Shown: positions 11,922-47,000, counted from the first letter of the whole stretch. The stretch: 63,942 bases of DNA, filler included, from Globobulimina sp. (GCA_003354225.1; 16 parts of 16 records of this genome joined end to end with filler, not necessarily neighbours in it), one strand, 5' to 3'. Program-made: numbers and translations. Notes: generated by a model from the sequence alone, not told the origin.

Positions 11922-12021
11922 NNNNNNNNNNNNNNNNNNNNNNNNNNNNNNNNNNNNNNNNNNNNTTAATTAATTAANNNNNNNNNNNNNNNNNNNNNNN
12001 NNNNNNNNNNNNNNNNNNNNN

Positions 12022-21275: not shown

Positions 21276-22632
21276 ATGAACCATGCTGTCAGTAAAAGAC
21301 GATCACAATTATTAGTAAGTGGATACGTTAGAAACTGTAGCACTCAATACATCCATACAGATATTATTAGCATCATTCACGCATTCCATTATTATATTTT
21401 ATTGCTGCTATATTCTATCGGTTACAACAAATCGGGGCAACAAGGAAACGGAGGAAATGAAGATATTAAAAAAATCACAAAAATAAAAACATTTGAAAAA
21501 GAAATACAAAATATTGTTACTGGTGGTGGTGATTATGGTGTATCAGCATATATTTTATTTGATGATGAAACCTATGAATGTTGTGGTGATAATAAAGTGG
21601 GTGTATTAGGTGTTGGGCATTATAATAATATTAATAAATGGCATCAAATGAAAGATATGAAAATAAAAACAATATTTGCTGCACCAAACAGATCAGACCA
21701 TTCATTTTGTATTTCAAACGAGAATAAATTATATGCGGTCGGATGGAATGATAATAATCAATTTGGTATAAAAACAAATGAAAAAAATAATAATCAATGG
21801 ACACCAATTAATACATCATTATCTATTCAAAAAGTAGCAACAACAAGTTGTTATACAACATTTTTAAGTGTTAATGGTAAAATATATGTTGCTGGTTATG
21901 ATTATTTTGGTTGTGGTTGTTTAGGATTGGGTAAATATATTAAATCATCACCAAATATTCAAGAAATTCAAATGAAAATAAAATTTAAGGATATATATTG
22001 TGGATGTTCTCATACCTTAGCAATTGATGATAATTATGGTGTTTGGTCGTGGGGATATGGTGATTGGGGTAGTTTAGGTCATGGAGATTATAATAATAGA
22101 TATTCACCAACAAGAATACAATATTTTATTCAAAACAATATTAAAATTGGTAAAATATGTTGTGGTGGTTGGCATAATATGTTATTATCCTTAAATAACA
22201 AAGTTTTGATCTTTTTGTGTTGTGTTTTGTCTGTCATATACAAATATATTTTAATAAATAAATAAGGTATATTGTTTTGGAGGGAATGGTGAGTATCAAT
22301 GTGGCAATGGTTCAATTAAAACTGTATATTTACCACAACCAAATGAAACATTAAAAAAGCAAACAATTATTGATATTAAATGTGGTGAGTCTCATAATAT
22401 TATTAAAACAGCGGATAATAAATATTATTTATGGGGCAATAATGAATATAATCAATGTTTATATGTATCAACATCAATTTGGTCCTATTTTTCGGATGTA
22501 AAGCCACCAAAACATATTAAGAAACCCTTATTATTTAATTCAAATTATTTTGATAAAGATAAAGAAATACTTGATATTTATCCGGGATATTACGAAACAC
22601 GAATAATAATTGGTACTGACAGTTGGCTTTGA
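21276..22632 (+). CDS. RCC1-repeat paralogue; intron 22203-22266
   Basis: Highly similar to 4312-5643, with the intron at the same position. Confidence 0.85.
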
Positions 22633-23939: not shown

Positions 23940-24143
23940 NNNNNNNNNNNNNNNNNNNNNNNNNNNNNNNNNNNNNNNNNNNNTTAATTAATTAANNNNN
24001 NNNNNNNNNNNNNNNNNNNNNNNNNNNNNNNNNNNNNNNTTTGATTTTTGATCATGACATTCTTGCTTGATTACAATATTTAAACATTTTGATTAAAAAC
24101 TAACAAGTTTTTTTTTTGCATGCACCGCTCTAAGAAACTGACC

Positions 24144-26015
24144 ATGTCTGTTTTCCTCAAGCCAAGATTGGCTCGACTTATCAGCCCCAAATGGACAGCC
24201 AAAAGGAATATAATCTCCAATCCCGCCTTAAACACCAACCCAGCTTTCCGTAACCCAGCAATCGTACCCTTTGGAATTGACTTCATCGACGATCCCCTAC
24301 GCGAATGCTTATTAGCTCGCGGCGTCGATTGCGATGAGTTGGAGCGTTTATATTATGCGCAATGTCAAGACGACGCCGAGTTTAATTCTTCCCGCTTACC
24401 CCGTTCATATGACAGCAAATTGTGGGGCTTCATCTATGGTCAACGCTTAGTTTCGGCCAAATACCAATTACAAACTCTCAGCAAAGACGAAAAATACCTC
24501 ACGAACTATTTAAACGAAACCGTCACAGAATTGACGATGCGAATGAACCGATTTTATCCCGATTTCGATTACAAAGCGCAAATCAGCGCATATACACCGC
24601 CACAAATCGACAACGATGCATATAACGAGGCCTACAACGAGGCCTTGGCCGATATCATCGCCTCCGACCCACTTCAATTCATCTCGATTTTCAAAAACAA
24701 CGCCTTCATTCCAGCCCAAACCACCACAGATTCCGGCGACAAATATGGCGATTATTTACCGGAAGACGTCGAGACGGAATTGATCGCAAATTACGAATTC
24801 GAGTGGGATTTCAATAGCAATTTGCAGCGATTTGAGGCGTATTTCGCTCGCATTCAGAAATTAGAACAGATGGTGTCGCCCAAAATCGACGCGTTGAGCA
24901 ACAATTTGCGCAAGAATTTCGCGGATTTTTTATTGGATTCTTTCAACAAAAACAAGTTAAACAACGTCAAGTATGTCATTGCTTTGGTGCAGAATGCCAC
25001 AAATAGCATCGTCCCGGATTTGGAGGGCGTGGCTGGCGAGGTTTTGGTGGCGAATTCGTTGGAGATATTGGCCGAGATGGGCAGCTCCGGCGAGTTGATT
25101 AGCAAATTATTTTATGGCAACAACGGGCTTCGCGATGCCAACTTATCCGGCAAATCCACGCAGGAATTAACTGCGATATTGTCCTGCTGCGACGTGGAGC
25201 GGTTGTTGTTAATCAACAAATCATTGGAAATCCATCAATATTTGAAGCATCATTCCATGGCACGCTTGCTTTTAACGTGTGCGATGCATGAATATCGCGA
25301 CTATTTTGCGCCGTTTTTGAATGGACACAACGGTGAGGATAATATCGGCGCATTTTGGCAGCGCAATGATGAGATTATGGATCAAATCATTTCGTATCAA
25401 AGCATTTATTATGAGAATCAGGACGATTTCTACCATTGTTTCAGTGCATTGGGCAAAGCCATTGAACAGCGCTGTGGCAACAAAGTGAAATTAGACTTGA
25501 CTGCATTCGCCGCGCCGCCATGTTGGATCAGTGCGATATTGACGGCGTGCATAGAGAGTGCGAGGATGGACGGGGACGTTTTGAGTGAGATTAAGTATTT
25601 GACGTATTATAAATATGTGTGTGCGCATTCTGGCAATATGGGCGTGATTGCGCTGATTAAGGCGGTTATGAATGGAGGGAAGCACGGTTTGAGCGGCGAT
25701 GAGTTAAGTAATATGGCGCACGAATTTGCGACCAATGCGTCCGGCGCGAATGAGATTGTTTTGGGGCAGATTGAGAGTGCGATGAGGGACAATGCGACGA
25801 GCTGTGATAAAAGCGAGTTAATGGGTGGATTGCAAGGGGAATTTGAGAATTTGCGGAGTGTGGCGACTTCGTATAATGAGTCGAGAGTGAATTTGGAGAA
25901 TGCGATTAAAGAGATTTCGATTGATTGTGGTGGCGTTAATTTTGAACATGCGAAGGCAAATTATGATCCGTTGTCGACATATTTAGCACAGTTTAGATAT
26001 TATAATAACCGATGA
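24144..26015 (+). CDS. Intronless hypothetical protein with a putative mitochondrial presequence
   Basis: ~620-aa ORF with GC-richer codons. The N-terminus MSVFLKPRLARLISPKWTAKRN is basic and lacks acidic residues. Confidence 0.7.
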   Translation: MSVFLKPRLARLISPKWTAKRNIISNPALNTNPAFRNPAIVPFGIDFIDDPLRECLLARGVDCDELERLYYAQCQDDAEFNSSRLPRSYDSKLWGFIYGQRLVSAKYQLQTLSKDEKYLTNYLNETVTELTMRMNRFYPDFDYKAQISAYTPPQIDNDAYNEAYNEALADIIASDPLQFISIFKNNAFIPAQTTTDSGDKYGDYLPEDVETELIANYEFEWDFNSNLQRFEAYFARIQKLEQMVSPKIDALSNNLRKNFADFLLDSFNKNKLNNVKYVIALVQNATNSIVPDLEGVAGEVLVANSLEILAEMGSSGELISKLFYGNNGLRDANLSGKSTQELTAILSCCDVERLLLINKSLEIHQYLKHHSMARLLLTCAMHEYRDYFAPFLNGHNGEDNIGAFWQRNDEIMDQIISYQSIYYENQDDFYHCFSALGKAIEQRCGNKVKLDLTAFAAPPCWISAILTACIESARMDGDVLSEIKYLTYYKYVCAHSGNMGVIALIKAVMNGGKHGLSGDELSNMAHEFATNASGANEIVLGQIESAMRDNATSCDKSELMGGLQGEFENLRSVATSYNESRVNLENAIKEISIDCGGVNFEHAKANYDPLSTYLAQFRYYNNR

Positions 26016-27850: not shown

Positions 27851-28265
27851 ACGCATATTAGTACTAATATTATATATTATACAGCTAATATATAATATTA
27901 TATATATTAGACTGCGAAGTTTCCCTTAGGATTCTGATCATATANNNNNNNNNNNNNNNNNNNNNNNNNNNNNNNNNNNNNNNNNNNNTTAATTAATTAA
28001 NNNNNNNNNNNNNNNNNNNNNNNNNNNNNNNNNNNNNNNNNNNNTTATGTTTTCACGGAGTAAACTCGTATTATAAAAGAATCCTTTTTTCTTGAAGTGA
28101 GTTAGTACACAAAAAACTGTCAGTTCGCACCATTCTTGCTGATAGTTGCATGCTTTGATAACGTGGGAGAGCCACCCACACGAACCACAACCATATATTT
28201 ATTAAACAAACAATTCGGGCAAACTTATTAATTCAAGCAACGAACACCAAACTACAACGTACACA

Positions 28266-31200
28266 ATGACCGACATAGAATACCAAAATCTCTTAGCTCC
28301 CGCCACTTCAATGAACGAACGTGAAGCAGCCGGGCATTATTACAATCTCGCCGAACAATGGTATCACTTACAAAACAACAAAGCCTTCAAAGCCTTCAGC
28401 AAACACTTATGTCGCATCACTAAATTACTCGAATCCCGCGACAAAAATACCTGTTTGGACGCCATCCGCGCATTAGCTTTCATCGCCGCCTGTCCTCGTT
28501 TACATCGTCAACTGTTTGAGGCCAATGTGCTGCATATGATCGTGTCCATTTTGGGCTTCTCGCCGGAAGCCGCCAATTGCGAGGCGGCCTTGGTAGTATT
28601 AAACCATTTATGTACACAATCTCCCAAGGACCAAAAACATAAATTCTCGTTGGTCACCGACTTCTGCAAAGACAAGAACTCGTTAGTCATTATCTTCAGA
28701 TACGCGCACGTCGAAGATCGCTGTCTCTCCATCATCGCAAATGTGATGTCCGTATTAGCTGCTTTATGCACCGAACGACGTATGTAATGCCCCCATTTTA
28801 TGTAACAATCCCTGCGCAATTTCGCACACAAAATAAATATTCAGCCAACATCCAGGAGCAATGCGTGCGTGCCGGGATAATGGAACGCGCCTTCAATCTG
28901 AAAACGTCCCACCATGATCGCATCGTGGTGACCAATGTGAACCTATTCTTGGCCTCCATGCAGTTACAGGATTATTCTGTGGACAAATTCAACGAAATGC
29001 ACACTTTGATGTGCATAAACATGGGCTATTCCTCTCGCGCCCTCTGCCTCGGCATCTGGCGCTTAATCGTGACCAAACCGTCGCGCTACCACGACGCGCT
29101 TAAATCGAATACGTTGTACACCGCCGTGCATCAGATATCCGTCGAGGACCCCACATTGGAGGAAGAATGGAACATTGTGGCCCGGTTTGTGAAACCCGAC
29201 AAACCCTCCTCTTCTCCGCAACCGCTGCCGCTGCAAAAGCATGAGGAGAAACACGAGGAAAAGCACTGTGAGGAAAAGTATGCGGAGAGGAATGGAGTGG
29301 AAAAGCATGAGGAAAAGAACGGTGTGGAAAAGCCGTATAAGTTGATACGTAATCCATCATTGTATAAACAGGAATTGATGAATATGGATAATAACAGCGT
29401 CAGTTTACCCATATTGGAACATAAAAAATCGTGGTTGCAGAAGGATGTCCATATCGCGATATTGCAAACCAACCCCATTGAATCCGATGACGGTGGCAAT
29501 TTGGCGCTGAATGCGGAACGCAAACGATTACAGGATATCTTTTTTAAGACCAGAGGGCTCAAGATTTTCTTTGGCGTTTTGACCAAGGACTCATTGATCC
29601 GCTGCATTCAAAGGGGAGCGCAGATTGTGCATATTAGCGGACACGGTCCGTACGAGAAGAAGTTGAAAGTGGAGGATAAATACGGCCGTTTGGAAGATTT
29701 GTCTGCTTCGAAAATAGGTTTGTTTTGTGCTTGAAACTGCAAATCTGCACCGTATTTTCTTTCTGATTGTTTGCAAACAAAACAGGCGAAGCTATCGAAC
29801 AAACCAACAACGTCTCCAACGGCAAGAAGAAGGGCGAAGGCCTGCAATTAGTGTTCGTGTCGACCTGTTACAGCGAACATGTGGCCCAATCCTTTTGCGA
29901 CGCCGGTGTGCCGCACGTGGTCGCCGTGCATGCCATGGTGCAAATCCTCGACGAAATGGCGACGAAATTCGCCAGTGCTTTCTACGAAGGCTTGATTGCG
30001 CACAAAAAGACGGTGTTGGAAGCCTTCAACAACAGCAAAGCGGAGTTATTATTGGAGTGCGAGATGGATTGTTGTTGCCGGCACGAAGGCCACGTGGCGG
30101 AGTGCCGCTGTCCGATTTGCAAAATCTACCGTTGCTGCTCGCATCATCACGGCGCGAACTCCCGCTGTCCGCAGAAGAAAAACATCGCCTGCTGCCAGCC
30201 GCGAGTGCCGCACAAGCACAGCGACAAATTCCTGTTATTGCCGGCCGGCAACGAGTCGCACCACGACAAGATCCGGTGGCAGCGAGTGGAGAACGCGCCG
30301 TGTGAGCGCATCGACAGTCGGCCCCCGACCAACATCGGGCAGCCCAGCCAGAAAATCATCGGGCGGGCGCGCGACACGCGCATTTTGGTGGACTTCCTGC
30401 ATCCCGACAACGAGAACCAGGGCGACGCCGTGTTCATTTACGGGCGGCCCAAGATCGGGCTGACCACCGTGGCCATGCAGGTGGCTCGCTTCTTCATCCG
30501 GCCGTGGTATCAGGCCATTTTCCTGGGCGGCGTGTTCCGGATCAATCTGCAGAACTGCGACGACCCCAACTTTCTGTACAGCTACATCGCGCAGGCCATG
30601 CACCACGGAATGGGCTTCGGCTCCTACTCGTACTGGGACGGCGAGGCCCGGAAATACATCGAGTACGACAGCGAGATCCAGAAAGATCTGCACCGCGCGC
30701 TGTCTGGCGACGACATCACCGATCCGATCGAGATCTTTTCTGGCGGCTCGTCGTCGCATTTCATCATTTTGGACCAGCACAAGAACAACAAAGAGCTGCT
30801 GCAGTACAAGTTGCCGCCGCTCATCTACCTCGAGTTCGAGAAGCGGATCCGAGTGCTCCCGATGGAGTTTTACATCGACGACGACGGCGATCTCGACGAC
30901 GACAGCCAAAAAAAAGTGAAAGTGCGCCGCATTCGCTTCACGCCGCCCGACGAAGAGACCATTTTGCAGGAAATCAAGCAGTACGGCAGCAAAGAAAAAA
31001 ACAACTTGGAGTTCCAGAAGTTGCTCATCATCGACCACATCAACTTGCCGCAGCCCAAAATGAAGCAGTTTCTGCAGAAAATCAAGCGGCTGATCGAGAA
31101 CATCAAATGCAAGCTGTTGTTGGTGTGCCACGACCGCATCGAGAACATCATCCATAAGATCCAGCAGCAGGATGTGGCGAATTGTATGTTGAAGCAGCGG

Positions 31201-31584
31201 CTGTGGCGCATTAAGCCCATTTTGAAGAAGGACGCGGCGAAGTTGCTGCTGGAACAGGCGCGCCAATTATACGAGTTCGACTTTCAAAATATTATCACGC
31301 CCTCGACGGCCGAGGAGACGTCGCAGTTCGCGCTGTTTGAGTGGTTGGCGAAGAGTCCCGCGCTGATCCAGCAATGCTGCACGGTGTTGGACCGCAAGGT
31401 GCCGTTTTGTGTGATCGTCAAAATGATGAACGAGCAGCCCAAGAAATGGTGCACGAGCTTGATTTCGTGGCAGCAGCCGCTCAAATTGCAGCAGGACGAT
31501 TTGCAGGACGCGCTCAACGCGCTCACCACGTTGTTGACGGAAATCAATGTCGTCCGATCCATTTGGAGCGACATCATCAAATAA
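28266..31584 (+). CDS. ARM-repeat + CHAT (caspase-like) protease + Cys/His cluster + degenerate STAND P-loop NTPase with a WWE-like insertion; introns 28780-28844 and 29718-29785
   Basis: CHAT dyad motifs IVHISGHG and LVFVSTCYS, then FASAFYEGL..TVLEAF. IIGRARD, Walker A-like GRPKIGLT, Walker B-like LLIIDH. Two GT-AG introns join three ORFs in frame. Confidence 0.8.
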
Positions 31585-32205
31585 TAATTTTATCAATTTT
31601 ATGTTTTATAATTTAATTTCATTTCATTTTTAATATTGTTGTAATTTTGTTTTTGTTTTTGTTTGCTTGTTATTATTATAAATGTTTAATATCTTCAATT
31701 TGTTTCAATATTCAATTCAATTTGACTTTTAATAAGAATTACTTGTGCTCTGACAATAAGTGCGTATACTTTATACATCTTAATTGTTCTCATCTCATCT
31801 CAAACTTGTTTGCGGCTAAAGCGGGGTTGGAGGGCGGAGTGGGTGGTGCGGTGTGGGCGTGGTGGGTGTGTCCTGGCTGTTTGTTGTGATGAGACATCAC
31901 TTTTTTTTTGCTGGCGAGCGAAGCGAGCCCTCCACGAGCACGAAGTGCNNNNNNNNNNNNNNNNNNNNNNNNNNNNNNNNNNNNNNNNNNNNTTAATTAA
32001 TTAANNNNNNNNNNNNNNNNNNNNNNNNNNNNNNNNNNNNNNNNNNNNTAAATTATTCAAAATAAAAATTGGCTGTGCAATACTTATGATTATGATTGTA
32101 TGCGCAACATTCTATTATGTCTTTAGTTGAGCTGTTTCTGCAATAACTTGAAGGATCTTCTTCAATCCAGAATTACCTACATTTTTAATATCATAAAGTT
32201 TTTAG

Positions 32206-32437: not shown

Positions 32438-35400
32438 ATGTTTCGAATTGCGACAGTACTCTGTATCGCAATTTTATTTGCTGAATGTTATGGCTTATAC
32501 AACTCGGAAGAATGCATTCAGCCATGTCCACCATTCTTCGAAGAATATGAAACACCGCAAGCTGGTGAAGGGCAAGATTTATTGAAAGAATTGATGGAAA
32601 TGACTGAAATGCAAGAATTTGCTCCAAGATGTATCGCCAACATTGCTAATTATCCTTATATGGCTGGAGAATCATTGGAAGAGATTGATTTGAAAACTTA
32701 CCAACAAACATTGGACACAACATCCCCAAACTCAGCACATTTCTGCTTCAAACAACTGAAAGGATTAAACTTTGAAGACGCAAAAAACGACAATCTCGAT
32801 CCAAGATGGAATGGCTTAAAAATAAAAATGGATTTGTGTGATAAATACAGCACAATGAAACTGTGCAATATATATTGGCCGTGTGTTGCGAATGCAATTA
32901 AATTGGCATGCAATCATCGAGGAGCATATAACTGCACATCTCAATCTTGTGATTGCTTTGATGGTTTTACAAATGTTGCCATCCGCTCACGATCTGAAGA
33001 TACATTTATTTCTTGCGATATCGGAATAAGGGCCTTATTCAACCATTCTTTGCCAATTATACCCGACGACTTTATCATTGACGGCAACTTTAAAGCAAAA
33101 GTCGTCAAAATCGAGCAATACAAAGTGCCGTCACCAATCAAGTTCCGGTTTTGGAGTCAGGCTTATTTGTTGGATGAATTTAATCGAGTCATTGACGACG
33201 AAAATGGCACTTTTGTAGATTTAAAGCAAAGGAAGTTAATTGATACATATTTTGCAATTAAATCAGCAAATTTATAGATGTTTGATCAAACCGCAGGAAA
33301 TATTTACCATATTTTACGCAACGGAAAGAAGACATTATCCATCAAAACAGCACATTATTAATCGGCGTATCTGCGGATTATGTCGATTGGAACGCTGCTC
33401 CTGACCTTCGTGCTGAGTCCTTGTCAGAATTACAAATGAGATACAATCAGCAAACACCGCTTGCGGCACAAACAAAAAGTTAACACTTCTTGTCACATTT
33501 AGTATTATTATATACACAAAAAAAACAAACACAGCAACAAGGAGCAATGCGCCCGGATGGATTGCAATAAATGAAAATGGATTATATGTCGTTGGTAATC
33601 AATACTGGACATCCAACAAAACCACACAATTACCGCCCAAATCCGGCATAGGATATACAACCAATATCGACATCGCGTGGTATTCATCTCAAACATTACT
33701 TAAATTTTCCAGCATCGGCAAAACTGAAATTCAATTCGAATTTGCAAATAAAATGCAAATATCCGCAATGCGAATGACATGGACTAAATTGATTCAGTCC
33801 AATGCAACCAACACAGACTTGCCTCCATTTAATATATTGATCGATACAGCATTTACTATTCGAAGCAATCTGGAGGAGGTTGTCAAATATTTCAAGGCCA
33901 AACACCAAACCAATACAGAATTAACGCCACCACATGACTCAGATGGAGCCATTAAATCAATATTGGAATCCAGAAAGATTACAGTTAGGCAGCGGAAATA
34001 TGGCGCCATGGTAATTGGACAGATTCGTTATCCACAAATCAAACAATCAGTTGGTGCGGTAATGAGTGACAAAAATATATCGCATGCATTCAAAATGGGG
34101 TTCCACAAAGTTCTGCGTATAAACAGCAAATATATAAATGTTGAAATTGATAAAACTGCAAAAATGCTCAATATAATAATATTTGAGGACGAAGCTGATT
34201 TCGCGTCGTTGTATGCTCGGTTGAAAGACGAAGAAGATCCATTTACGGGCTACGTATCAGACAAAGCATTCACAAACGTATTGCGAAACGAGATGAAATT
34301 TGTTGAAAATAAGTTAAGCATTTCCTTTGATTCTTGGCAGGTAATATCAGACAATAATTTGTTTGCGGCCTGGTATGAAATATCTGTATTCGCCACTTTA
34401 TCAGAAATAAATTCTAAAACCGGAATCAATGTAGCAACGGCACAGCAATATTTGAATGGATTTAAACAGTCGTTATTGGATGGAATGGATAGTTTGAATG
34501 CGCAAAAAACAGAAATAACATACTTTGATATTCAACAAAACAGTGGCTATAAATATGAGGCAGAGATAAAAGTGATTGCTGAGTCTGTGACAAAGACACA
34601 AGACATTCAAAGCAATGCTATTTCATCATTGACAGAGATATCATTGAATAAAGGCTGGGGAATGGTTGACACACATAAAAGCATTGCCGTTTCAAGTTAA
34701 TGTAATATTTATATATCCAGTAAATGCAATAATAATCATTTAATTTAAGGAGTCAGTATATTTGCGACCATATTGCTGGACGAAAATACAAATAATGCTA
34801 ATTCTGATGCATACTTTGCTGGCTTTCCGAAAGGAGATACTCTGATATTGATTTTAAAGGAGTTGGTTATTGATTCGGCTCAATCAGTAAATGTAGACAT
34901 TTTAAACAGTGAAAAAACGTCAAGGTCAAATGTGCTCAGAGTAACAGTCGAATTTTATCTAAGCATTGAACAGGAGTCCTTTGCAGATGATATACTTAAC
35001 AATGTAAGAAATGCAAAGTTTGTTAAATTAATAAACGAGAAAGCTTTGGAGAAGAACGTAAATATCTTTGCCACCGAGATTACGATAATTTATCCATGTA
35101 AGTTGATGTATGTATGTCTGTAATTAAATTGATGTTAAACCGCAACGTACAGCTAAACTCAATTCAAATGTGGATACAATCATAGATTCGAGAGTTGAAT
35201 TATTAGCAAATGATGGTTCGAATACAATTTTAAACCAATCCGGTAATACACAGCTGACTGATTCAGTTTTGCCGCGCTTTATGAATAAATATTGGCCCAT
35301 TAGGCTGCCAGCAAATATATTTTGCTCTCAATTTTATACAAATCTACAATTTGGCACAGCGATTTCCTTTGGATTTTTAAAACAATATTTCTGCATTCAA

Positions 35401-39799: not shown

Positions 39800-40055
39800 A
39801 AAAAAATGGTGCTATACAGTAATTTCCAATCACTTTTTTTTTATACATTTCATTTTTTGCAGTAATTTAGATTTCATTTTTTGTGTATTTTAATTTTTAT
39901 ATAAACTTTTTTTGTTTTTTGGCTTTGTCATTTTTTTCACTCCACTTGATCCGTGNNNNNNNNNNNNNNNNNNNNNNNNNNNNNNNNNNNNNNNNNNNNT
40001 TAATTAATTAANNNNNNNNNNNNNNNNNNNNNNNNNNNNNNNNNNNNNNNNNNNN

Positions 40056-43000
40056 AATATCGGTGCTATTGTCCTCAATCTGGATATAAAAAGTAGCGTT
40101 GAAATGCTCATCAAATAGGAATATTGTGGGTGATCTGGTTGGAGCAGTGGTTGGTGAACTAGTTGGTGGGAATGTAGGTGCTGTCGATGGTGAAAATGTG
40201 GGTGCCATGGTCGGAGATGTTGTAGGAGCATAACTAAATATATAATCGCAACATTCTCCGATACAATCTCCATTATACCGGTTAAATGTACTGTGATATA
40301 AATATTCAGTAACACTATTATTAATATTCAAATTGCAGCTATACGTCACGTCATAACATGTACTTTGATTTGTTAATGGGTTAAAGGCACATTGCAAATC
40401 CAATTCGTTAAAGCCTTTGGCAAAGAATATGAATATGTCCCATGGGTCCACATACAATGCTTTTTCAATATTTATATTGCAATTCGTAAATGGACAATAA
40501 ATCCATAAATCTCTGCATGATGTAAAATATCGGTCATCTGTTGGAATAACTAGTTCTGTTTTGGTGATATCAAAACATGTCAGATTTAATCCTTTTGCCG
40601 GGTTCGACGCATTCGAATAATAAATCCGCGTTCTTGGACATGAATTGGTATTTAAACAATTTACTTCTACGTAATCAACATCGTTGGCAAATATTTGCAA
40701 GTAATGACATGCTGCCCAATTTTGACAATACACTTTTAAGCTTTTCTGTGTGGATTTTACATCTCCGATGTAATAATTTGTATAAATTTGCGCATAGACA
40801 CAACTATAACGGCCTTCACAGTGCAAAATACACTCATCGCCAACGCAATATATTTTGCTATCAGCGCACGATTGATATGGAGAACAGTAAATAATTTGCG
40901 AGGTTATGTTTTGTCCTGCGAATTGATTCTCGAATGATGCAATAACCGTTGATTCAAAGACTGGGTTCGATTTTAAGCACTCAGTCTCGTTGACTGCATC
41001 AAAATTATCGTATTTATTATAATAATCTGGAGCGCCGCAATAAAACTCAATATCTGGGTCTTCTGAAAAATTATAATTTATATCCAATTGATTAAATCCG
41101 TACAAACTATGCATTTTAATACCGGTGGATATATCCAATAAATTTAGATTATATTCGTATTTCTCATCAATATATGAAGAATAATTTGATATTTTTAAAA
41201 AAATCGATGTGTCATCACATGTCCCGTAATCATAACAATTTATGTCAATATTGGAGTCAGTGAATGTTAATAATGATTGACTGCAACTTCCATAGCAATG
41301 AAACTCGAATGAAGTAATGCTCCAAAAATTAAAATCTGTTCCTGAGCATTCCACACATTCTAATTCCACCGATACATTTCTATCATCATAGCCACTGATC
41401 GTAAACCAATCGCTGTAACATCGATCACATAAAATCTTAACAGATAATGGCCTTTGTGCTTCATTCGTATTTGCAACATTAAGAATCCTCCAATCTGATT
41501 TCACATCGTGTTGATCTGTCCAATTTAACAAATGATCGCTGTTCAATATCCTAAACTCGGCCTGACTCATTCCGTAATCATATATGATTGCTGCCAAATT
41601 GTGTGATACCTCAAAATCTACGTAATTCCCTTCTTGGGCATCAACATAATAATTTGTATAAAACTTACCATATTCGGATGGCAGTAATATTGGATTAATA
41701 AAAGCTGAACAAATACTGCCCGGACTGCTGGAGCACTGCAAATGAATTGACTTTGGGTAACTATCTTTTTTACAGGACTGCAAACCAGAACATTCAAAAT
41801 GGCATTTGGATGACACATCGTTGCAATAAACGTTATGCACTTTGCATGAATATGCTGCATCACAATATATGTAACATTCAGCCAATGATAATGATGGGTT
41901 ATATTTCTTGCATGATAAGCTAGTGTCACTTGTGTAGTTTGGAATTTTCGTGGTGTGTATTATGGCAACATCGTTTAACCAGATATATGCATCACAGCCA
42001 TAAGAGTAGTTTGCATCGAACACATACAAATGATCATAGTTGTCACAAAACCAACTGTAGTTTGCATGGTTATATTCCATATCACAGTAATACAAATAAT
42101 CTGAATATTCTGTACAATATAAAATAATGCCATCACATATTAAATCATCCGCATCGTTACATTTCAAATCGATTGTATTCATGCCGTGTTTGGAGAATAT
42201 TGATATATGATTATGGTAGGAATTATTTAATTCAATGTGACATTTCTGTGCTTGGTATAGATAATCATACATTGTATTGAATGGTATTAAATCGGGACAG
42301 GTAACATCCATAAACACACAGCTTTCATTTGTCTGAGAACAAACAACATATAAATCCGCAAATGTTGAGTCTGCGTTGATTTTTAAATTTTGTGTATTTA
42401 CAGAAACATCGTGACAGCTTTGTGAGTGATTACAAAACAATGAAATTTCAAAATTGTCCCATTTCCATAGCTGAGAAACATTCCAATCGTCAGATACAAA
42501 CAACATCATATGTTTACAGGATTGCTTCCCTGCACAATAAATATTCATATTGAGACTTAAATTATTGATTTCATGCTCAGAGTGTATGTTATTTATCTCT
42601 ATGACCATTGCTTCGCAACTGCTGTCAGATAAACAATGTATTGTATATTGTGCAAACGTTGCGATGTCGGATAACGACAGTGATGGACTGGAAGACGTGT
42701 TTAACGAATTTAATATTAATGATCTGTTGCTAAATTGATTGTAGTGTTGTATGATATCTGAACTAGTTTCGTCGGATTTGACTGTTAAATGCTTGCAACT
42801 GTCGGGATATAGACAATCGATTTGGATATCTTGATTGAAAAATGTATGATAAATTGTTGTAAAACCACAGGATTCTCGTTGACTGCAAATAATATTACAT
42901 CTGGTTGAATTATTACAAAATATCGATGATAATGCGCAGCTTCTATAGGATGAACATTCTATGATACATTCTGACTGATTTGAAGGGCAATGTATATCTT

Positions 43001-43082
43001 CATCTATGAATTGACTAAAACTGATACGTAGTGATGATAGAAACAAAATCGACAAAAATAATGAACGCGAATTGGTGACCAT
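40056..43082 (-). CDS. Secreted Cys-rich repeat protein (C-x4-5-SC repeats) with a Pro/Thr/Ser stalk, 3'-truncated
   Basis: Signal peptide, many CxxxxSC..IxC units and APTTSPTMAPTFSPS repeats. Confidence 0.75.
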
Positions 43083-43219
43083 GAGTGTTTTTAACAAACA
43101 ACAAAGAAGAATGCAAATAGGTTTTTTTCTGAACTGTACTTGCTAAGTTTTCTGCAGGTTTTCCTGTTTTTCGGCAACTGTGATTTCATTGGCTGATTGG
43201 CACCAGAAATATATGACTG

Positions 43220-44055: not shown

Positions 44056-47000
44056 AATAAGACGCAACACCAAAAAGTATCATCAATATCATCATGCTAT
44101 GAAACCATCCTAAAGTGTGGATCCCTTACATCTGTGAATACATCATCCAATTTAGCCGCCAAAGCATCAGATTATGCATTTTTATGCTCAAAGTACGGAT
44201 TTACAGATCGTGCAGACAGATTATACGAATGTATGGATCAAATAAATGATGAAAATGTGAAAGAACATCACTTGGATTTAGTATCGATATTATTTCAACT
44301 TTCTGAATCAAGCCAACATTCATTTAATCCGATTGAGAATAACAAGCATGATAGAAATAATTTTTTTGAATTAAATGATGCAAATATTAATCCAGCAAAT
44401 AATAATCAAACAATCAATAAACTTAATAATTTGTTTAAAGCCCTACCATCGACAGATATGAGTACAGTCACTCAGTCAATGCAAGATATTAAAATACCAA
44501 ATGGAGCGGAAGAAAAACAAAGTATTGATATAAATGATGAGAATGTGTGGTTATCAGAGGAGAGTCAGAGTGATATTAATTTTATGAATCCATTTTCATC
44601 GGCAATCTCATATTCAATTTCAAATGAAGAAAATAGCATAAATACAATGCATATATCATTTGACGATAGCATTCAGGATGAAATTGACAGCAATTTTATG
44701 GGTGTTGCTGTTTGTGATAATTGTAATAATTCTGTTGGTGACAGTTTGTTTGCTTTGCAATCATCAGATTTGCCATCAACACATACAACAGATACAACAT
44801 ATAATAATGACACCATCTCATTATTTCGCGAGGAATGGAATTATGTGAAACAAGAATGGCGCCATTTAGATGAAACAAATAATAAATCAAATATACAAAG
44901 TAAATATGGATCGTATTGCGAAGATAAACAAGTATTTATTCCATCTGATAGTTATATATCATGCTCATATTTCAATGGGTCATATCCGGATGAAACAAAT
45001 CATAAAATAAAAGAAAATGAAAATGATTATTTATTATCCGATAAACAGCTCAATATTTACAATAAAAGATACATACAATGCACTTTTAAACACAATGCAG
45101 AAACACCTGTTTTTGCACATAAATCCGAGATAATATCATCGATTTTAAATGCGTTGTTAGGCATTGCAGACAATAAAAATGTAATAATTTATGATACAAA
45201 ATGTAATGAATTCTTTCCAATTTGTTGTTTTTGCATTGGATATACAGTGGAATCCATAAAAGATATATTACACAATATTTGTAATACCGCCACAAAATAT
45301 GTTCGTATCACGCAAATCATCAATCAATTTAAAATAAGAAATAGTTTCATTTCACAATGTTTATCGCATTCCCTCGGTCAATATTTAAATTTCTATAAAC
45401 AATGTGTATTATTGTTACCGTCATCCATTCAAAACCAATATGCTGTCTGTGATGGCATGCATAGTTTAGAAATAATGGATATAATGGCACATATTTGTAA
45501 ATTACAAGAAAGCATAACATTTCTATATAATTTATGCAATTCATTGTCGAATCTGAATGGATTTGGTGTTGCCATTTTAGAATATTTATATGAAACCATC
45601 CTGCAAACAATCAATAATAATCATAGTTTATCCATTTATTTATTTCAATCCTGTTTTGAGCCATTAATCGATGTTATTTCTTCTTGGATTTATTGTGGCG
45701 AAATCAATGATTTTTATAACCAAATTACTGAAAACAATACAGATGAAAATGTGGTAAAATTTAAGAAATTGCCGTATTTTTTAGAATCATTGAAAGAGGA
45801 CATTGAAAGAACTGGCTTTCAATTAAACATTTTAAAAAAATGCGACTTTGAGTTATTTGGTTGTTGCTATGTTCCAAAGTTTGTTGATGATAAAGAAAAG
45901 AAAATAAATTATCCCATTCACGCAATATTCAAATACAAACAAATCAAAATCTGTTCAAATAAACAGAAAAAATTAATTAAACTACAAATGTCATTCTTTG
46001 ATGAAATAAAATCTAAATTTTATCAGCAACAGAAAGAAAAAAAAGAATTAAATTATCAGCAAAACATGAAACAAATTGAAATGCTAAAAAAAGAAAAAGA
46101 AAATCAAGAGAAAGAGATTGAAACTCAAAGACGAGAAATTGTAGAAAAACAAAGGAAAATAAGATATGCTTTGCAAGAAACAGTGAATGAAAGAAAACAT
46201 AATAAAAAACTGAAAAAATTGCAAACAATCAAAGATGAAAAAAAACAATTATTTGAAATGGAAATGAAAGAAGAAAATGAAATTAAAACAGAACCAAACA
46301 AACATTCATTATTAATGCAATGGAAAATCGAGAGAGCAAAATTAAATTCAAAACGGACAGAATTAATTCGCCAAATTGATAATAAATATTTTGATGAATT
46401 TCAGCAAATTAAAAATCAAATTAAAAAACCGCAAACTATGACTGATAATGTCACAAAACAAAGAAATGAGGCAATTATATCCAGATTGACGCAACAAACA
46501 TTGTCACAGTTTGAATCATTAGAAATTGCAATGGATTCGGAGCAGGAGAAAGAGCAAGAAAATGGGGATGAGGATGGCGATGAAGATATGAAATTAATGG
46601 AATTGCCACAGAATGAAATGGAAATAAACGAAGAGAAAAAGGTAAAATACGCCGCAAAGCCATTTCAAAGAGATTTTGAGTTTGATTTTGATGAAACAGG
46701 AAAAGGAAAAGAAGAAAAAGAGTGGAATGCAATGAACATAACAAGACCGAATGGGATGGGATTTATTTATGATTATCGCAACAATGAGAATGAGAATGAA
46801 ACCTTTCTTCCAATCAAAGAATGCCTGAAACAGAGCATTTTTGGTGGCATTCAATTACAATCATTCATTGTGGACAAAGTGACATTATTTTTATTTGAGG
46901 ACAAACTAAAATTATTAAACCATTTCCAATCATTAAACAGATTTTATTTGATGAATAATGGCGATTTAATGAATAGATTTTGTTGTAATTTGTATAAAAA

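What the first reader, a model, noticed from the sequence alone, without database searches (positions are those of the whole stretch)
28266..31584. NLR-like ARM-CHAT protease-STAND protein: a candidate protist immune or cell-death switch
Seen: after splicing two introns, a ~1060-aa protein with N-terminal ARM-like helices, a CHAT domain with both catalytic motifs intact (HISGHG ~29629, STCYS ~29860), a Cys/His cluster, and an NB-ARC/STAND-like module. Known: CHAT domains are caspase/separase-clan His-Cys proteases, and CHAT or STAND fusions act in bacterial antiviral and cell-death systems and resemble apoptosome/NLR designs. Inference: a ligand-gated protease in a protist where no such pathway is known to me. 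The repeat domain is N-terminal, the reverse of the usual NLR order.
Basis: partly seen in the sequence, partly recalled or inferred. Interest (0 to 1): 0.75.

Follow-up and report, generated by a model that had tools for sequence, protein, structure and literature searches.

The report
Caspase-like protease fused to dead NTPase
A foraminifer-type gene encodes a caspase-like (CHAT) protease joined to an armadillo-repeat arm and to an NLR-type switch module that has lost its ATP-binding lysine: a conserved, uncharacterised variant of the protease switches used in cell death and immunity.

Summary
Exons 28266-28779, 28845-29717 and 29786-31584, joined across two GT..AG introns of 65 and 68 nt, give an open 1061-aa frame. 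One intron-less contig from a public run lacks both introns. Full-length relatives, one from the foraminifer Ammonia, align end to end at 68-73% identity.

The protein has five parts:
- an ARM solenoid
- a disordered linker
- a CHAT protease with the His438/Cys490 dyad intact
- a 50-residue stretch with 11 Cys and 7 His
- a STAND/AAA+-fold NTPase module

It belongs to a protist family of CHAT-Cys/His-STAND proteins. Named members come only from oomycetes and foraminifera.

The second Walker B acid is His or Gln, the sensor-1 Arg is not kept, and about 110 residues are inserted into the NTPase core. There are no C-terminal repeats. The ARM domain is as conserved as the protease.

So this is most likely a protease regulated through an inactive STAND scaffold, not a classical ATP-gated, fast-evolving immune receptor. 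I call it a new variant of a known kind. The biological role is unknown.

The parts
28222..28265 (+). 5' untranslated leader, minimum extent
   Evidence: The intron-less X7 contig begins at 28222. The ATG at 28266 aligns with the start of P0001, P0002 and P0164.
28266..28779 (+). Exon 1 (residues 1-171 plus the first base of codon 172)
   Evidence: ORF; splice arithmetic; joint seen.
28780..28844 (+). Intron 1, 65 nt, GT..AG, GC 0.37
   Evidence: X7 contig skips exactly 65 nt with ends GT..AG. X6 and X8 loose ends behind 28779 read the start of exon 2. GC.
28845..29717 (+). Exon 2 (residues 172-463)
29718..29785 (+). Intron 2, 68 nt, GT..AG, GC 0.35; it splits the CHAT domain between the catalytic His and Cys
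   Evidence: X7 joint reported as 29712 -> 29785 with 4 letters between. This equals removal of 29718-29785 plus two synonymous changes (29713, 29716), worked out.
29786..31584 (+). Exon 3 (residues 463-1061 and stop TAA at 31582-31584)
   Evidence: P0164 aligns up to residue 1061.
28266..29155 (+). ARM-type alpha-solenoid, residues 1-275 (interrupted by intron 1)
   Evidence: Sub-threshold Pfam ARM_ARMC5 (23.6 bits), ARM_PUB and Arm matches. The ortholog model has about 18 helices at residues 4-275, mostly pLDDT 75-93 with a dip to 57-63 at about 121-140. Foldseek hits designed armadillo proteins (4hxt, E 5.8e-06), importin-alpha, SARM1 and Armc8. Weak homology to the ARM part of P0027 (E 3e-06).
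29156..29434 (+). Poorly conserved, probably disordered linker, residues 276-368, with an in-frame 27-nt x 2.9 repeat at 29255-29333
   Evidence: Ortholog model pLDDT below 50 over 281-386. Identity 10-49% against 63-83% in the CHAT domain for the same four relatives. TRF result.
29435..30063 (+). CHAT (caspase-like, clan CD) protease domain, residues 369-555; His438 at 29642-29644, Cys490 at 29866-29868
   Evidence: Pfam CHAT 20.1 bits on exon 3 alone (cut-off 24). It is above the cut-off in P0001 (32.0), P0002 (33.2), P0003 (28.4), P0013 (30.4) and P0014 (28.2). His and Cys columns are invariant in A2. Profile versus 8tl0 SAVED-CHAT gives E 1.7e-13. Foldseek on the ortholog model versus 8tl0 gives E 1.7e-06, about 190 columns, rmsd 2.7-4.0.
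30070..30219 (+). Cys/His-rich stretch, residues 558-607 (11 Cys, 7 His), presumed zinc-binding
   Evidence: The Cys and His columns are invariant or nearly so in A2 and A3. The motif is present in 38 of 67 fetched CHAT proteins that could be judged. No Pfam family matches it. Model pLDDT 64-75. Metal binding is inferred, not shown.
30364..31233 (+). STAND/AAA+-fold NTPase-derived module, residues 656-945
   Evidence: Model of window:30292-31581 has pLDDT 90 and pTM 0.83. VIA-align: Cdc6/Orc1 Z 15.2, ZAR1 14.0, Apaf-1 13.8, CED-4 13.4, Dark 13.3. hhalign against canonical CHAT-STAND relatives gives probability 100, E 1.4e-70, 517 columns.
30442..30468 (+). Degenerate Walker A, GRPKIGLTT (Leu in place of the conserved Lys)
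30610..30948 (+). Clade-specific alpha/beta insertion of about 110 residues (about 738-850) between strand 2 and Walker B
   Evidence: hhalign leaves it unaligned to canonical relatives. phmmer finds it only in close relatives. It is folded in the model, with block-mean pLDDT 73-95. The protein atlas gave no lead.
31021..31041 (+). Walker B strand LLIIDHI (Asp kept, second acidic residue replaced by His)
   Evidence: Model strand 243-250. It aligns to the LLvLD of relatives. D248 is invariant and H249 nearly invariant in A4.
31114..31137 (+). Sensor-1-type strand LLLVCHDR
   Evidence: Model strand 273-280. It aligns to the ..TSR strand of relatives. The Arg is not conserved in the clade.
31234..31581 (+). 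C-terminal helical lid/tail, residues 946-1061, with SPALIQ at the place of the STAND GxP motif; no repeat domain follows
   Evidence: Helices in the model. The Pro is invariant in A3 (P524). No Pfam repeats.

Best explanation
This is a real, spliced gene of a foraminifer-type rhizarian. It encodes a 1061-aa (about 122 kDa) cytosolic multidomain cysteine protease with the order ARM solenoid, disordered linker, CHAT domain, Cys/His (probably zinc) stretch and STAND-derived module. The architecture, fold, conservation, splicing and intact His438/Cys490 dyad are shown. How it works is inferred. The CHAT domain is the effector. As in other caspase-fold enzymes attached to oligomerising platforms, its activity is probably set by self-association or a conformational change of the adjoining STAND-derived module. 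In the foraminiferal branch that module has lost the residues for canonical NTP binding and hydrolysis, gained an insertion of about 110 residues and carries no C-terminal repeat sensor. It therefore most likely acts as a nucleotide-independent scaffold or regulatory platform, a eukaryotic counterpart of bacterial 'inactive STAND' modules. The strongly conserved ARM domain would be the surface that binds a conserved partner, either a regulator or a substrate. The conservation pattern points to a conserved proteolytic signalling role, possibly regulated cell death or a developmental transition, rather than a variable pathogen receptor.
For: Gene model and splicing.

Purifying selection: by my reading of the codon positions, 36 of the 40 listed differences between the window and the run contigs fall on third positions (138 further differences were not listed).

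CHAT domain:
- Pfam is above its cut-off in 5 close relatives.
- The dyad columns are invariant.
- There is sequence-profile and fold similarity to SAVED-CHAT 8tl0.

STAND origin of the C-terminal module:
- Alignment is colinear with proteins that pass Pfam NACHT, NB-ARC or nSTAND1.
- hhalign gives probability 100, E 1.4e-70.
- The fold matches Cdc6/ORC, ZAR1, Apaf-1, CED-4 and Dark at Z 13-15.
- The family profile A2 hits AfsR (1.6e-13), Apaf-1 (2.9e-11) and Roq1.

Inactivation of the NTPase:
- 91 of 108 aligned relatives have the Walker A Lys.
- The window and all rows of its clade have L, I, C or T instead.
- That clade is one side of a branch, SH-aLRT 100.
- 5 of 5 later-found close relatives also lack the Lys, among them Reticulomyxa RFI_01212.
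- Walker B reads hhhhD[HQ].
- The sensor-1 Arg varies.

No C-terminal repeats.

Conservation: ARM 80-83%, CHAT 81-83%, linker 26-49% identity to the two nearest relatives.

Precedent: inactive STAND modules in bacterial conflict systems (PMC8195603, passages).
Against: No biochemical data exist: protease activity, oligomerisation, metal binding and lack of nucleotide binding are all inferred. The two-chain fold of the ARM part against the rest gave no answer (see Tried and rejected). In the Lys-less proteins a basic residue often sits at P-loop position 4 (K or R in 11 of 17 rows, against G in 81 of 91 canonical rows), so non-canonical nucleotide binding is not excluded. The Walker B Asp is invariant, which would be unexpected if all nucleotide or metal contact were lost. 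By structure alone the module is tied between ORC/Cdc6, TnsC/MuB and STAND proteins. A profile of the foraminiferal clade alone finds no STAND protein among solved structures by sequence. Copy number in the genome could not be checked because no genome is held, so 'conserved, not expanded' rests on the database hits only. The runs that show splicing are only guessed to be RNA.
Confidence: 0.55

Rival explanations
1. This is a bona fide NLR-type innate-immune or cell-death receptor. A ligand bound by the ARM repeats would trigger nucleotide exchange in the STAND module, oligomerisation and activation of the CHAT protease, which would then kill the cell or cleave a pore-former.
For: The architecture is that of an effector fused to a NOD, with a repeat domain. 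Relatives with intact P-loops, some also carrying TPR sensors, exist in oomycetes and unnamed protists. CHAT proteases in fungal NLR-like proteins sit next to gasdermins and one cleaves its gasdermin (PMC8851545, passages). SAVED-CHAT, the closest solved CHAT, belongs to an antiviral system.
Against: The Walker A Lys is lost throughout the clade, the second Walker B acid is lost and the sensor-1 Arg is not kept. There is no C-terminal sensor repeat. ARM is as conserved as the catalytic domain. No second copy lies in the 64-kb window. No recognisable substrate gene sits beside it: the neighbouring ORFs have no Pfam family.
Confidence: 0.2
2. The NTPase is still a working switch with a re-wired P-loop. 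The lysine at position 4 of the loop (GRPK-IG) would replace the lost position-7 lysine, much as the catalytic lysine is relocated in WNK kinases (recalled, not from a call).
For: Position 4 is K or R in 11 of 17 Lys-less rows but G in 81 of 91 canonical rows. The Walker B Asp and both P-loop glycines are conserved in most clade members. The core fold is modelled with high confidence.
Against: Position 4 is Q in P0004 and P0162, G in P0021 and P0127, and Y in P0019 and Reticulomyxa, so the 'shifted' residue is not universal. The catalytic second acid of Walker B and the sensor-1 Arg are also gone. No coordinates were available to check the geometry.
Confidence: 0.15
3. The protein is a non-proteolytic scaffold or adaptor. 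The CHAT domain would serve only as a binding module, and the protein would act through ARM- and NOD-mediated assembly.
For: Two of its three main domains (ARM and the degenerate NOD) are non-catalytic interaction modules.
Against: The His and Cys of the dyad, and the residues around them, are invariant across 22 aligned family members including distant ones. This is hard to explain without catalysis.
Confidence: 0.07
4. It is not a functional gene: a decaying pseudogene or an assembly chimera.
For: One short DNA-run contig shows a 4-nt insertion and odd joints inside exon 3.
Against: The 1061-codon frame is open. Full-length colinear relatives exist. Differences fall on third codon positions and a spliced contig was found.
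Confidence: 0.02

Closest known systems
Uncharacterised oomycete SAM-CHAT-NACHT/NB-ARC-TPR proteins (for example Aphanomyces euteiches Ae201684P_018088, Saprolegnia parasitica SPRG_10776, Thraustotheca clavata THRCLA_05922) and unnamed ARM/UBA/SAM-CHAT-STAND proteins
   Same: They are homologous and colinear through CHAT, the Cys/His stretch, the KFLLLP motif and the start of the NTPase module (24-32% identity over about 300-400 aligned columns). The ARM part is weakly homologous to that of P0027.
   Different: They keep GxxGxGK[ST] and a standard Walker B, and several carry C-terminal TPRs. They lack the 110-residue insertion. None has a tested function.
Fungal HET-Q2-like CHAT proteases and NLR-like proteases that control gasdermins (PMC8851545)
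   Same: A eukaryotic caspase-like CHAT domain sits in multidomain proteins that carry repeats, and some have a NOD. The proposed logic is a regulated protease that cleaves a downstream executioner.
   Different: The paper's tested example is TPR-CHAT encoded next to a gasdermin gene. Here there is an N-terminal ARM, a Cys/His stretch, a degenerate NOD and no recognisable substrate gene nearby. Homology beyond the CHAT domain was not tested.
Apaf-1 / CED-4 / Dark apoptosomes with caspase-9 / CED-3
   Same: The NOD fold matches (Z 13.3-13.8, about 220-258 residues aligned). A caspase-fold protease is coupled to a NOD platform; here the two are in one chain.
   Different: Apoptosome NODs bind (d)ATP/ADP through an intact P-loop, have WHD/HD2 domains plus WD40 sensors, and recruit the caspase through CARDs (recalled). 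Here the Walker A Lys is lost, there are no sensor repeats, and the protease is of the CHAT family, not a caspase proper.
SAVED-CHAT of type III CRISPR systems (PDB 8tl0)
   Same: It is the closest solved CHAT domain by sequence profile (E 1.7e-13 with A2, 2.4e-05 with the clade-only profile) and by fold. That protease works in an oligomeric filament (entry title).
   Different: It is bacterial, is regulated by a cyclic-oligoadenylate-binding SAVED domain, and has no ARM, Cys/His stretch or NOD.
Bacterial inactive STAND modules (iSTAND, iSTAND2; PMC8195603)
   Same: They are STAND-derived modules whose NTP-binding motifs have eroded and that are thought to act as assembly or sensing parts of conflict systems.
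   Different: They are separate bacterial lineages within MoxR-vWA ternary systems. The authors state that inactive versions have no functional precedent in well-studied eukaryotic STAND systems (passage). Direct homology was not tested here.
SARM1 (ARM-SAM-TIR)
   Same: An ARM solenoid precedes an oligomerising part and an effector. The SARM1 ARM appears among the fold matches (9l2d_E). Nearer relatives of the window protein have ARM-UBA-SAM before CHAT.
   Different: The effector (TIR NADase) and the oligomeriser (SAM ring) differ. Autoinhibition of SARM1 by its ARM is recalled, not tested here.

Membership tests
CHAT domain (Pfam PF12770, caspase-like clan CD peptidases) | Profile score above Pfam's gathering cut-off (24 bits) | tested here: inconclusive
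   The window's domain is split by intron 2 and only contiguous pieces could be scanned. Exon 3 alone scores 20.1 bits and exon 2 nothing. Unsplit close relatives pass: P0001 32.0, P0002 33.2, P0003 28.4, P0013 30.4, P0014 28.2. P0004 scores 18.0 and does not pass.
CHAT domain (Pfam PF12770, caspase-like clan CD peptidases) | Catalytic His (..SGHG) and Cys (..[ST]C.S) after consecutive core strands | tested here: met
   HISGHG at 434-439 and VSTCYS at 487-492. The columns are invariant in 22 sequences. They align to the GHG and AC of 8tl0.
CHAT domain (Pfam PF12770, caspase-like clan CD peptidases) | Caspase-hemoglobinase alpha/beta fold | tested here: met
   Tested on the 68%-identical ortholog P0001, not on the window protein itself. 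Foldseek versus 8tl0 SAVED-CHAT gives E 1.7e-06, 188-191 columns, rmsd 2.7-4.0.
CHAT domain (Pfam PF12770, caspase-like clan CD peptidases) | Peptidase activity | not testable with these tools
   Needs an enzyme assay with a C490A control.
STAND NTPases (NB-ARC / NACHT class) | P-loop NTPase core of the AAA+/STAND type with a helical lid | tested here: met
   Model pLDDT 90. Z 12.6-15.2 to Cdc6/ORC, ZAR1, Apaf-1, CED-4, Dark, NRC2 and MalT. By structure alone STAND and ORC/TnsC-type AAA+ proteins are tied.
STAND NTPases (NB-ARC / NACHT class) | Sequence-profile membership (Pfam NB-ARC, NACHT, nSTAND) | tested here: not met
   The window gives only AAA_16 at 16.5 bits (cut-off 32.6). The clade-only profile finds no STAND among solved structures. 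Homology is shown indirectly: hhalign to canonical relatives gives probability 100, and those relatives pass NB-ARC, NACHT or nSTAND1.
STAND NTPases (NB-ARC / NACHT class) | Walker A GxxxxGK[ST] | tested here: not met
   The motif is GRPKIGLTT. The Lys is replaced in all close relatives that cover it.
STAND NTPases (NB-ARC / NACHT class) | Walker B hhhhD[DE] | tested here: not met
   The motif is LLIIDH. The Asp is invariant, but the second acid is His (Gln in P0014).
STAND NTPases (NB-ARC / NACHT class) | Sensor-1 Arg on strand 4 | tested here: inconclusive
   The window has R913 (LLLVCHDR), aligned to the TSR of relatives. P0001, P0002 and P0004 have T, K and T there.
STAND NTPases (NB-ARC / NACHT class) | GxP motif in the helical domain after the core | tested here: inconclusive
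   The Pro of SPALIQ is invariant (P524 in A3), and hhalign puts the segment opposite the corresponding helix of the canonical relatives. In the one MAFFT block that reaches that region, the relatives read GNPRLIE / GxLPLA there. The Gly is not kept.
NLR-type receptor (effector - NOD - C-terminal repeat sensor) | C-terminal LRR, TPR, WD40 or ANK sensor after the NOD | tested here: not met
   Only about 116 helical residues follow the core. No repeat family appears in the window pieces or in P0001-P0004.
Armadillo-repeat proteins | Right-handed solenoid of three-helix repeats | tested here: met
   Tested on ortholog P0001 (80% identical in this part). Helices span 4-275. Foldseek hits designed armadillo proteins, importin-alpha and Armc8 at E 6e-06 to 6e-04. 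Pfam ARM families are sub-threshold on the window.

The most novel reading that the evidence does not exclude
Foraminifera, from naked Reticulomyxa to calcareous rotaliids, have kept a single-chain 'caspase on a dead NOD'. This would be the first eukaryotic case in which an inactive STAND module, with an inserted domain and perhaps a lysine-shifted P-loop, rather than an ATP-driven switch, controls a caspase-like protease. Together with the conserved ARM arm and a family-specific zinc-type stretch, it would be the executioner or trigger of a rhizarian regulated-cell-death or life-cycle proteolytic pathway that has no described components so far.
Probability: 0.3. Interest if true: 0.7.

Novelty: new variant of a known kind. 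Interest (0 to 1): 0.5.

Why it matters
Regulated cell death and innate immunity in Rhizaria have almost no molecular handles. This gene gives a concrete, testable candidate: a conserved protease with an intact caspase-type dyad, built into an apoptosome-like chain. The family also links two themes. One is caspase-fold proteases fused directly to NOD modules, known from bacteria and fungi. The other is erosion of the NTPase into a scaffold, described for bacterial iSTAND modules and said to lack a eukaryotic precedent (PMC8195603, passage). The contrast between canonical oomycete-type members and the Lys-less foraminiferal branch is a natural experiment on how a NOD switch can be re-wired. If the role turns out to be housekeeping, the finding is still a clean new domain architecture with a family-specific Cys/His module. 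It is not a new kind of system.

Tried and rejected
Searches that gave no useful match:
- NCBIfam on the three exon translations gave nothing meaningful.
- phmmer of exon 3 against solved structures gave nothing.
- No tRNA genes lie in the window.
- The listing of cluster members returned no organism names for 10 relatives.
- The protein atlas on the NTPase insertion scored at best 0.82, and on the Cys/His stretch at best 0.84. Both are below the level of a lead.
- Net charge gave no hint that the insertion binds nucleic acid: pI about 5.

Closed or unavailable resources:
- No genome is held for this window, so paralogue counts and a search for gasdermin-like substrates were impossible.

Searches in other sequence collections:
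- With A3 in prokaryote genome contigs, 140 pattern matches gave 0 relatives.
- With A3 in viral contigs, 33 pattern matches gave 0 relatives.
- These pattern scans are narrow and do not show absence. One bacterial CHAT protein with a canonical P-loop (a Blastocatellia MAG, P0154) did appear in the protein searches.

Sequencing runs: no RNA holder is listed on record. The spliced contigs come from runs only guessed to be RNA.

Complex prediction, ARM (P0001 1-280) against CHAT-to-NOD (P0001 388-1085): no verdict, score 0.00. This is not evidence either way.

Ideas rejected:
- Recent horizontal transfer, suggested by the gene being GC-richer (0.46-0.56) than its flanks (0.28-0.30). I rejected this because it has two spliceosomal-type introns. 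Other coding blocks of the window are equally GC-rich, and the family is shared with other foraminifera.
- FIILDQ (residues 788-793) as Walker B, as MAFFT first aligned it. I rejected this because it is not conserved in the clade, lies in the insertion, and hhalign and the model put Walker B at LLIIDH.
- The long antisense ORF 30235-31266. I treat it as a by-product of the GC3-rich coding strand.

Literature: five searches for a prior description of foraminiferal or protist CHAT-STAND proteins found none. The library omits most subscription journals.


Full report
1. WHAT IS IN THE SEQUENCE

Between 28266 and 31584 the + strand carries three ORFs in different frames.

Reading the DNA, I placed two short introns with GT..AG ends:
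- Intron 1 is 28780-28844, 65 nt.
- Intron 2 is 29718-29785, 68 nt.

Removing them gives one open frame of 3186 nt, which is 1061 aa plus the TAA stop. Exon GC is 0.46, 0.48 and 0.56. Intron GC is 0.37 and 0.35, and the flanks are 0.28 and 0.30. Other coding blocks of the window are similarly GC-rich.

The neighbouring ORFs are ordinary eukaryotic genes: dihydrouridine synthase, a VWA protein, an RCC1 protein, a gamma-tubulin complex component and APC4.

2. IS THE SPLICED MODEL REAL?

Three lines of evidence agree.

(a) Relatives align end to end.
- The spliced protein aligns in one piece with P0001, a 1137-aa transcriptome-derived protein labelled taxid 29189. That taxid is the genus Ammonia, Foraminifera. 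Identity is 67.8% over query 2-1058.
- It aligns with P0164 (1031 aa) at 73.2% over query 1-1061.
- The multiple alignment has no gap at either junction.

(b) Public runs hold the spliced form.
- A 2386-nt contig of run X7 lies on 28222-28779, 28845-29712 and 29785-30740. X7 is only guessed to be RNA, and it carries the same organism label as the best DNA holder.
- Its first joint skips exactly the 65-nt intron, with ends GT..AG.
- Its second joint is reported as 29712 -> 29785 with four letters between. Compared with the window sequence, this equals removal of 29718-29785 plus two synonymous substitutions.
- Contigs of X6 and X8 stop at 28779 and go on with the first letters of exon 2.
- A contig of the DNA run X1 runs unspliced through intron 1.

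(c) The differences look like a gene under purifying selection.
- The X7 contig differs from the window at 158 of 2382 aligned letters.
- Of the 40 differences listed (138 more were not shown), I count 36 on third codon positions of my frame.

Two caveats apply. No run is on record as RNA. The contigs are 5-7% divergent, so they come from another allele, strain or close species.

3. DOMAINS

The tools take only contiguous window pieces, so the window protein was scanned exon by exon.
- Exon 1 gives sub-threshold ARM families (ARM_ARMC5 23.6 bits).
- Exon 2 gives nothing.
- Exon 3 gives CHAT at 20.1 bits (cut-off 24) and AAA_16 at 16.5 bits.

Intron 2 splits the CHAT domain. In unsplit close relatives CHAT passes the cut-off: P0001 32.0, P0002 33.2, P0003 28.4, P0013 30.4 and P0014 28.2 bits. 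P0004 scores 18.0 and does not pass.

Two structure models were made.
- The first covers the window's own residues 632-1061, folded with a 22-row alignment. It has pLDDT 90 and pTM 0.83.
- The second is the full-length ortholog P0001, with pLDDT 76.5 and pTM 0.61.

The ortholog model shows these parts:
- an all-helical solenoid at residues 4-275
- a disordered stretch at 281-386
- an alpha/beta domain at 395-568
- a poorly ordered Cys/His stretch
- the NTPase module

Foldseek with the ortholog model puts SAVED-CHAT (8tl0) first: E 1.7e-06, about 190 columns, rmsd 2.7-4.0. Designed armadillo proteins, importin-alpha, SARM1 and Armc8 follow. Passages of 10.1101/2024.05.08.593092 identify 8tl0 as the SAVED-CHAT structure.

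The window's own C-terminal model matches AAA+/STAND NTPases, and these scores are effectively tied:
- Cdc6/Orc1 2qby_B: Z 15.2, 242 residues aligned, rmsd 3.8
- TnsC and MuB: Z 14-15
- ZAR1: Z 14.0
- Apaf-1: Z 13.8
- CED-4: Z 13.4
- Dark: Z 13.3

Their columns are invariant in a 22-sequence family alignment.

4. THE FAMILY

An exhaustive phmmer search with exon 3 found 661 proteins at E <= 0.001.

A small close group shares the whole length at 36-76% identity. It comprises P0001-P0004, P0013, P0014, P0016, P0017, P0163-P0166 and P0168, plus fragments. Its only named members are from Ammonia and from Reticulomyxa filosa (RFI_01212, partial). Both are foraminifera.

More distant proteins align colinearly through CHAT, the Cys/His stretch and the first part of the NTPase. 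On 23 of them Pfam lists, at E <= 1e-4:
- CHAT in 17
- NACHT, NB-ARC, nSTAND1, AAA_16 or NPHP3_N in 15
- SAM, UBA, ARM, PAS, F5/8-C or RRM domains before CHAT
- TPRs after the NTPase

The named members of this wider set are all oomycetes: Aphanomyces, Saprolegnia, Thraustotheca and Albugo.

The Cys/His motif is present in 38 of the 67 fetched CHAT proteins that could be judged. The following KFxLL motif is present in 56 of those 67. The Cys/His stretch therefore marks a subfamily.

One bacterial CHAT protein with a canonical P-loop, from a Blastocatellia MAG, is among the distant hits.

Profile tests gave the following.
- A profile of the wide family (A2) hits AfsR (1.6e-13), SAVED-CHAT (1.7e-13), Apaf-1 (2.9e-11), Roq1 and many plant NLRs among solved structures.
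- A profile of the foraminiferal group alone (A4) hits only SAVED-CHAT (2.4e-05).
- That group aligns to the canonical relatives with hhalign probability 100, E 1.4e-70, over 517 columns. The alignment covers CHAT, the Cys/His stretch, the P-loop, Walker B, the sensor-1 strand and the helical lid.

The STAND origin of the window's module thus rests on homology to canonical relatives plus the fold. It does not rest on a direct family match.

In an HMM alignment of the P-loop region, 91 of 108 rows have the Walker A lysine.

The 17 rows without it include two near-duplicates and two probably misaligned rows. They include every close relative of the window:
- GRPKIG[LI]TT
- GRPKVGLT[AS]
- GKRQVGCTT
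- GPPRSGLSS
- GLQRSGLSL
- SRPKVGLTT
- GAPKIGTTS

The five close relatives found later also lack the lysine, among them Reticulomyxa with GPKYVGCTT.

I built a tree of 25 rows. Seven near-identical rows were dropped beforehand, and the root is at the midpoint only. The eight Lys-less close relatives form one side of a branch with SH-aLRT 100. With P0021 added the support is 98. One change of state suffices.

The other NTP-related features are also altered.
- Walker B is LLIIDH. The Asp is invariant. The second acid is His, or Gln in P0014.
- The sensor-1 Arg is present in the window but is T, K or T in P0001, P0002 and P0004.
- About 110 residues, roughly 738-850, are inserted between strand 2 and Walker B. 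They are predicted to fold. They are unaligned to canonical relatives. They are found only in the close group.
- After the core only about 116 helical residues follow, with no repeat domain.

Two observations keep a non-canonical nucleotide site possible.
- P-loop position 4 is K or R in 11 of the 17 Lys-less rows, against G in 81 of 91 canonical rows.
- The Walker B Asp is invariant.

6. CONSERVATION PATTERN

Identity of the window protein to P0164, P0001, P0002, P0162 and, where given, Reticulomyxa is as follows:
- ARM: 83, 80, 63, 39%
- Linker: 49, 26, 30, 10%
- CHAT: 83, 81, 71, 63, 48%
- Cys/His: 80, 76, 60, 64, 64%
- Insertion: 68, 60, 40, 33, 29%

The ARM domain is as conserved as the protease, which is not what a diversifying pathogen sensor looks like. 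No second copy lies in the window. The genome could not be searched.

7. HOW IT MOST LIKELY WORKS

Shown:
- an intact caspase-type dyad in a CHAT fold
- its fusion to a NOD-derived module
- an ARM solenoid joined through a disordered tether

Inferred: the CHAT domain is the effector, and its activity is set by assembly or conformation of the neighbouring module. Two comparisons support this. Caspases on apoptosomes behave this way (recalled). The title of entry 8tl0 calls it an activated SAVED-CHAT filament.

The NTP motifs are eroded across a clade that spans Reticulomyxa and rotaliids, while the dyad is kept. So the module probably works as a nucleotide-independent scaffold. It would be comparable to the inactive STAND modules described in bacteria. 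For those, the authors note no precedent in well-studied eukaryotic STAND systems (PMC8195603, passages).

The ARM domain would bind a conserved partner, either a regulator or a substrate.

I give this reading 0.55. The rivals are:
- a classical immune or cell-death NLR: 0.2
- a still-active switch with a relocated lysine: 0.15
- a non-catalytic scaffold: 0.07
- a pseudogene or artefact: 0.02

8. COMPARISON WITH WHAT IS KNOWN, AND NOVELTY

CHAT domains fused to, or working with, repeat and NOD modules are known. In fungi they occur in HET-Q2-like proteins next to gasdermins (PMC8851545, passages). In animals they occur as TPR-CHAT proteins (PMC12314368, passages).

Four features differ here:
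- a family-specific Cys/His stretch between CHAT and the NOD
- the N-terminal ARM
- the eroded P-loop together with the inserted domain
- the absence of a C-terminal sensor

Five literature searches found no description of foraminiferal or other protist CHAT-STAND proteins. The library lacks most subscription journals. Supplements were not consulted.

I rate it a new variant of a known kind, interest 0.5. It is a well-supported, expressed and conserved candidate for proteolytic signalling in a group with no known cell-death machinery. Its biological role and mechanism are untested.

Noticed in passing
window, about every 4 kb (e.g. 27945-27988 and 28001-28044; 31949-31992 and 32005-32048): Pairs of 44-base N runs recur at regular intervals of about 4 kb through the whole window (30 runs). 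They look like masking rather than assembly gaps. None falls inside the gene.
   Followed up: no
window 28266-31584: Third-position GC climbs along the gene, from 0.54-0.71 in the first 500 codons to 0.79-0.89 in the last 460. I have no explanation for this.
   Followed up: no
window 30235-31266 (-) and 30504-31157 (+), 29727-30305 (+): Long ORFs overlap exon 3 on both strands. They are most likely by-products of the GC3-rich coding frame, not genes.
   Followed up: partly
window 29255-29333: An in-frame 27-nt tandem repeat (2.9 copies, 73% matches) encodes the His/Glu/Lys-rich part of the disordered linker.
   Followed up: no
window 30030-30141 and 30141->30748: In the DNA run X1, a 156-nt contig matches with a 4-nt insertion behind 30085, has loose ends on both sides, and has a joint that skips 606 nt. 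It could be a second, rearranged or decayed partial copy in that sample, or an assembly artefact.
   Followed up: no
window 28200-31650: Contigs of X6, X7 and X8 are only 90-99% identical to the window, with mostly synonymous differences. Closely related alleles, strains or species carry the same gene.
   Followed up: partly
window 1436-2854, 8995-11973, 21276-22265, 44134-47949, 61151-63031: The neighbouring ORFs hit Pfam Dus, VWA, RCC1, gamma-tubulin complex (GCP N and C) and APC4. This is an ordinary eukaryotic nuclear context.
   Followed up: partly
window 24120-26015 (+), 32438-33277 (+), 33753-34700 (+), 40008-43097 (-): Sizeable ORFs flank the gene without any Pfam family at E <= 0.001. 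The 279-aa ORF at 32438 starts with a hydrophobic, signal-like N-terminus and is Cys-rich.
   Followed up: no
P0175, P0178, P0179, P0012 (database relatives): The CHAT-STAND core is combined with many other N-terminal modules in unnamed or oomycete proteins: SH2, FHA, protein kinase, SPRY-ARM-LRR. This suggests a versatile signalling chassis in protists.
   Followed up: no
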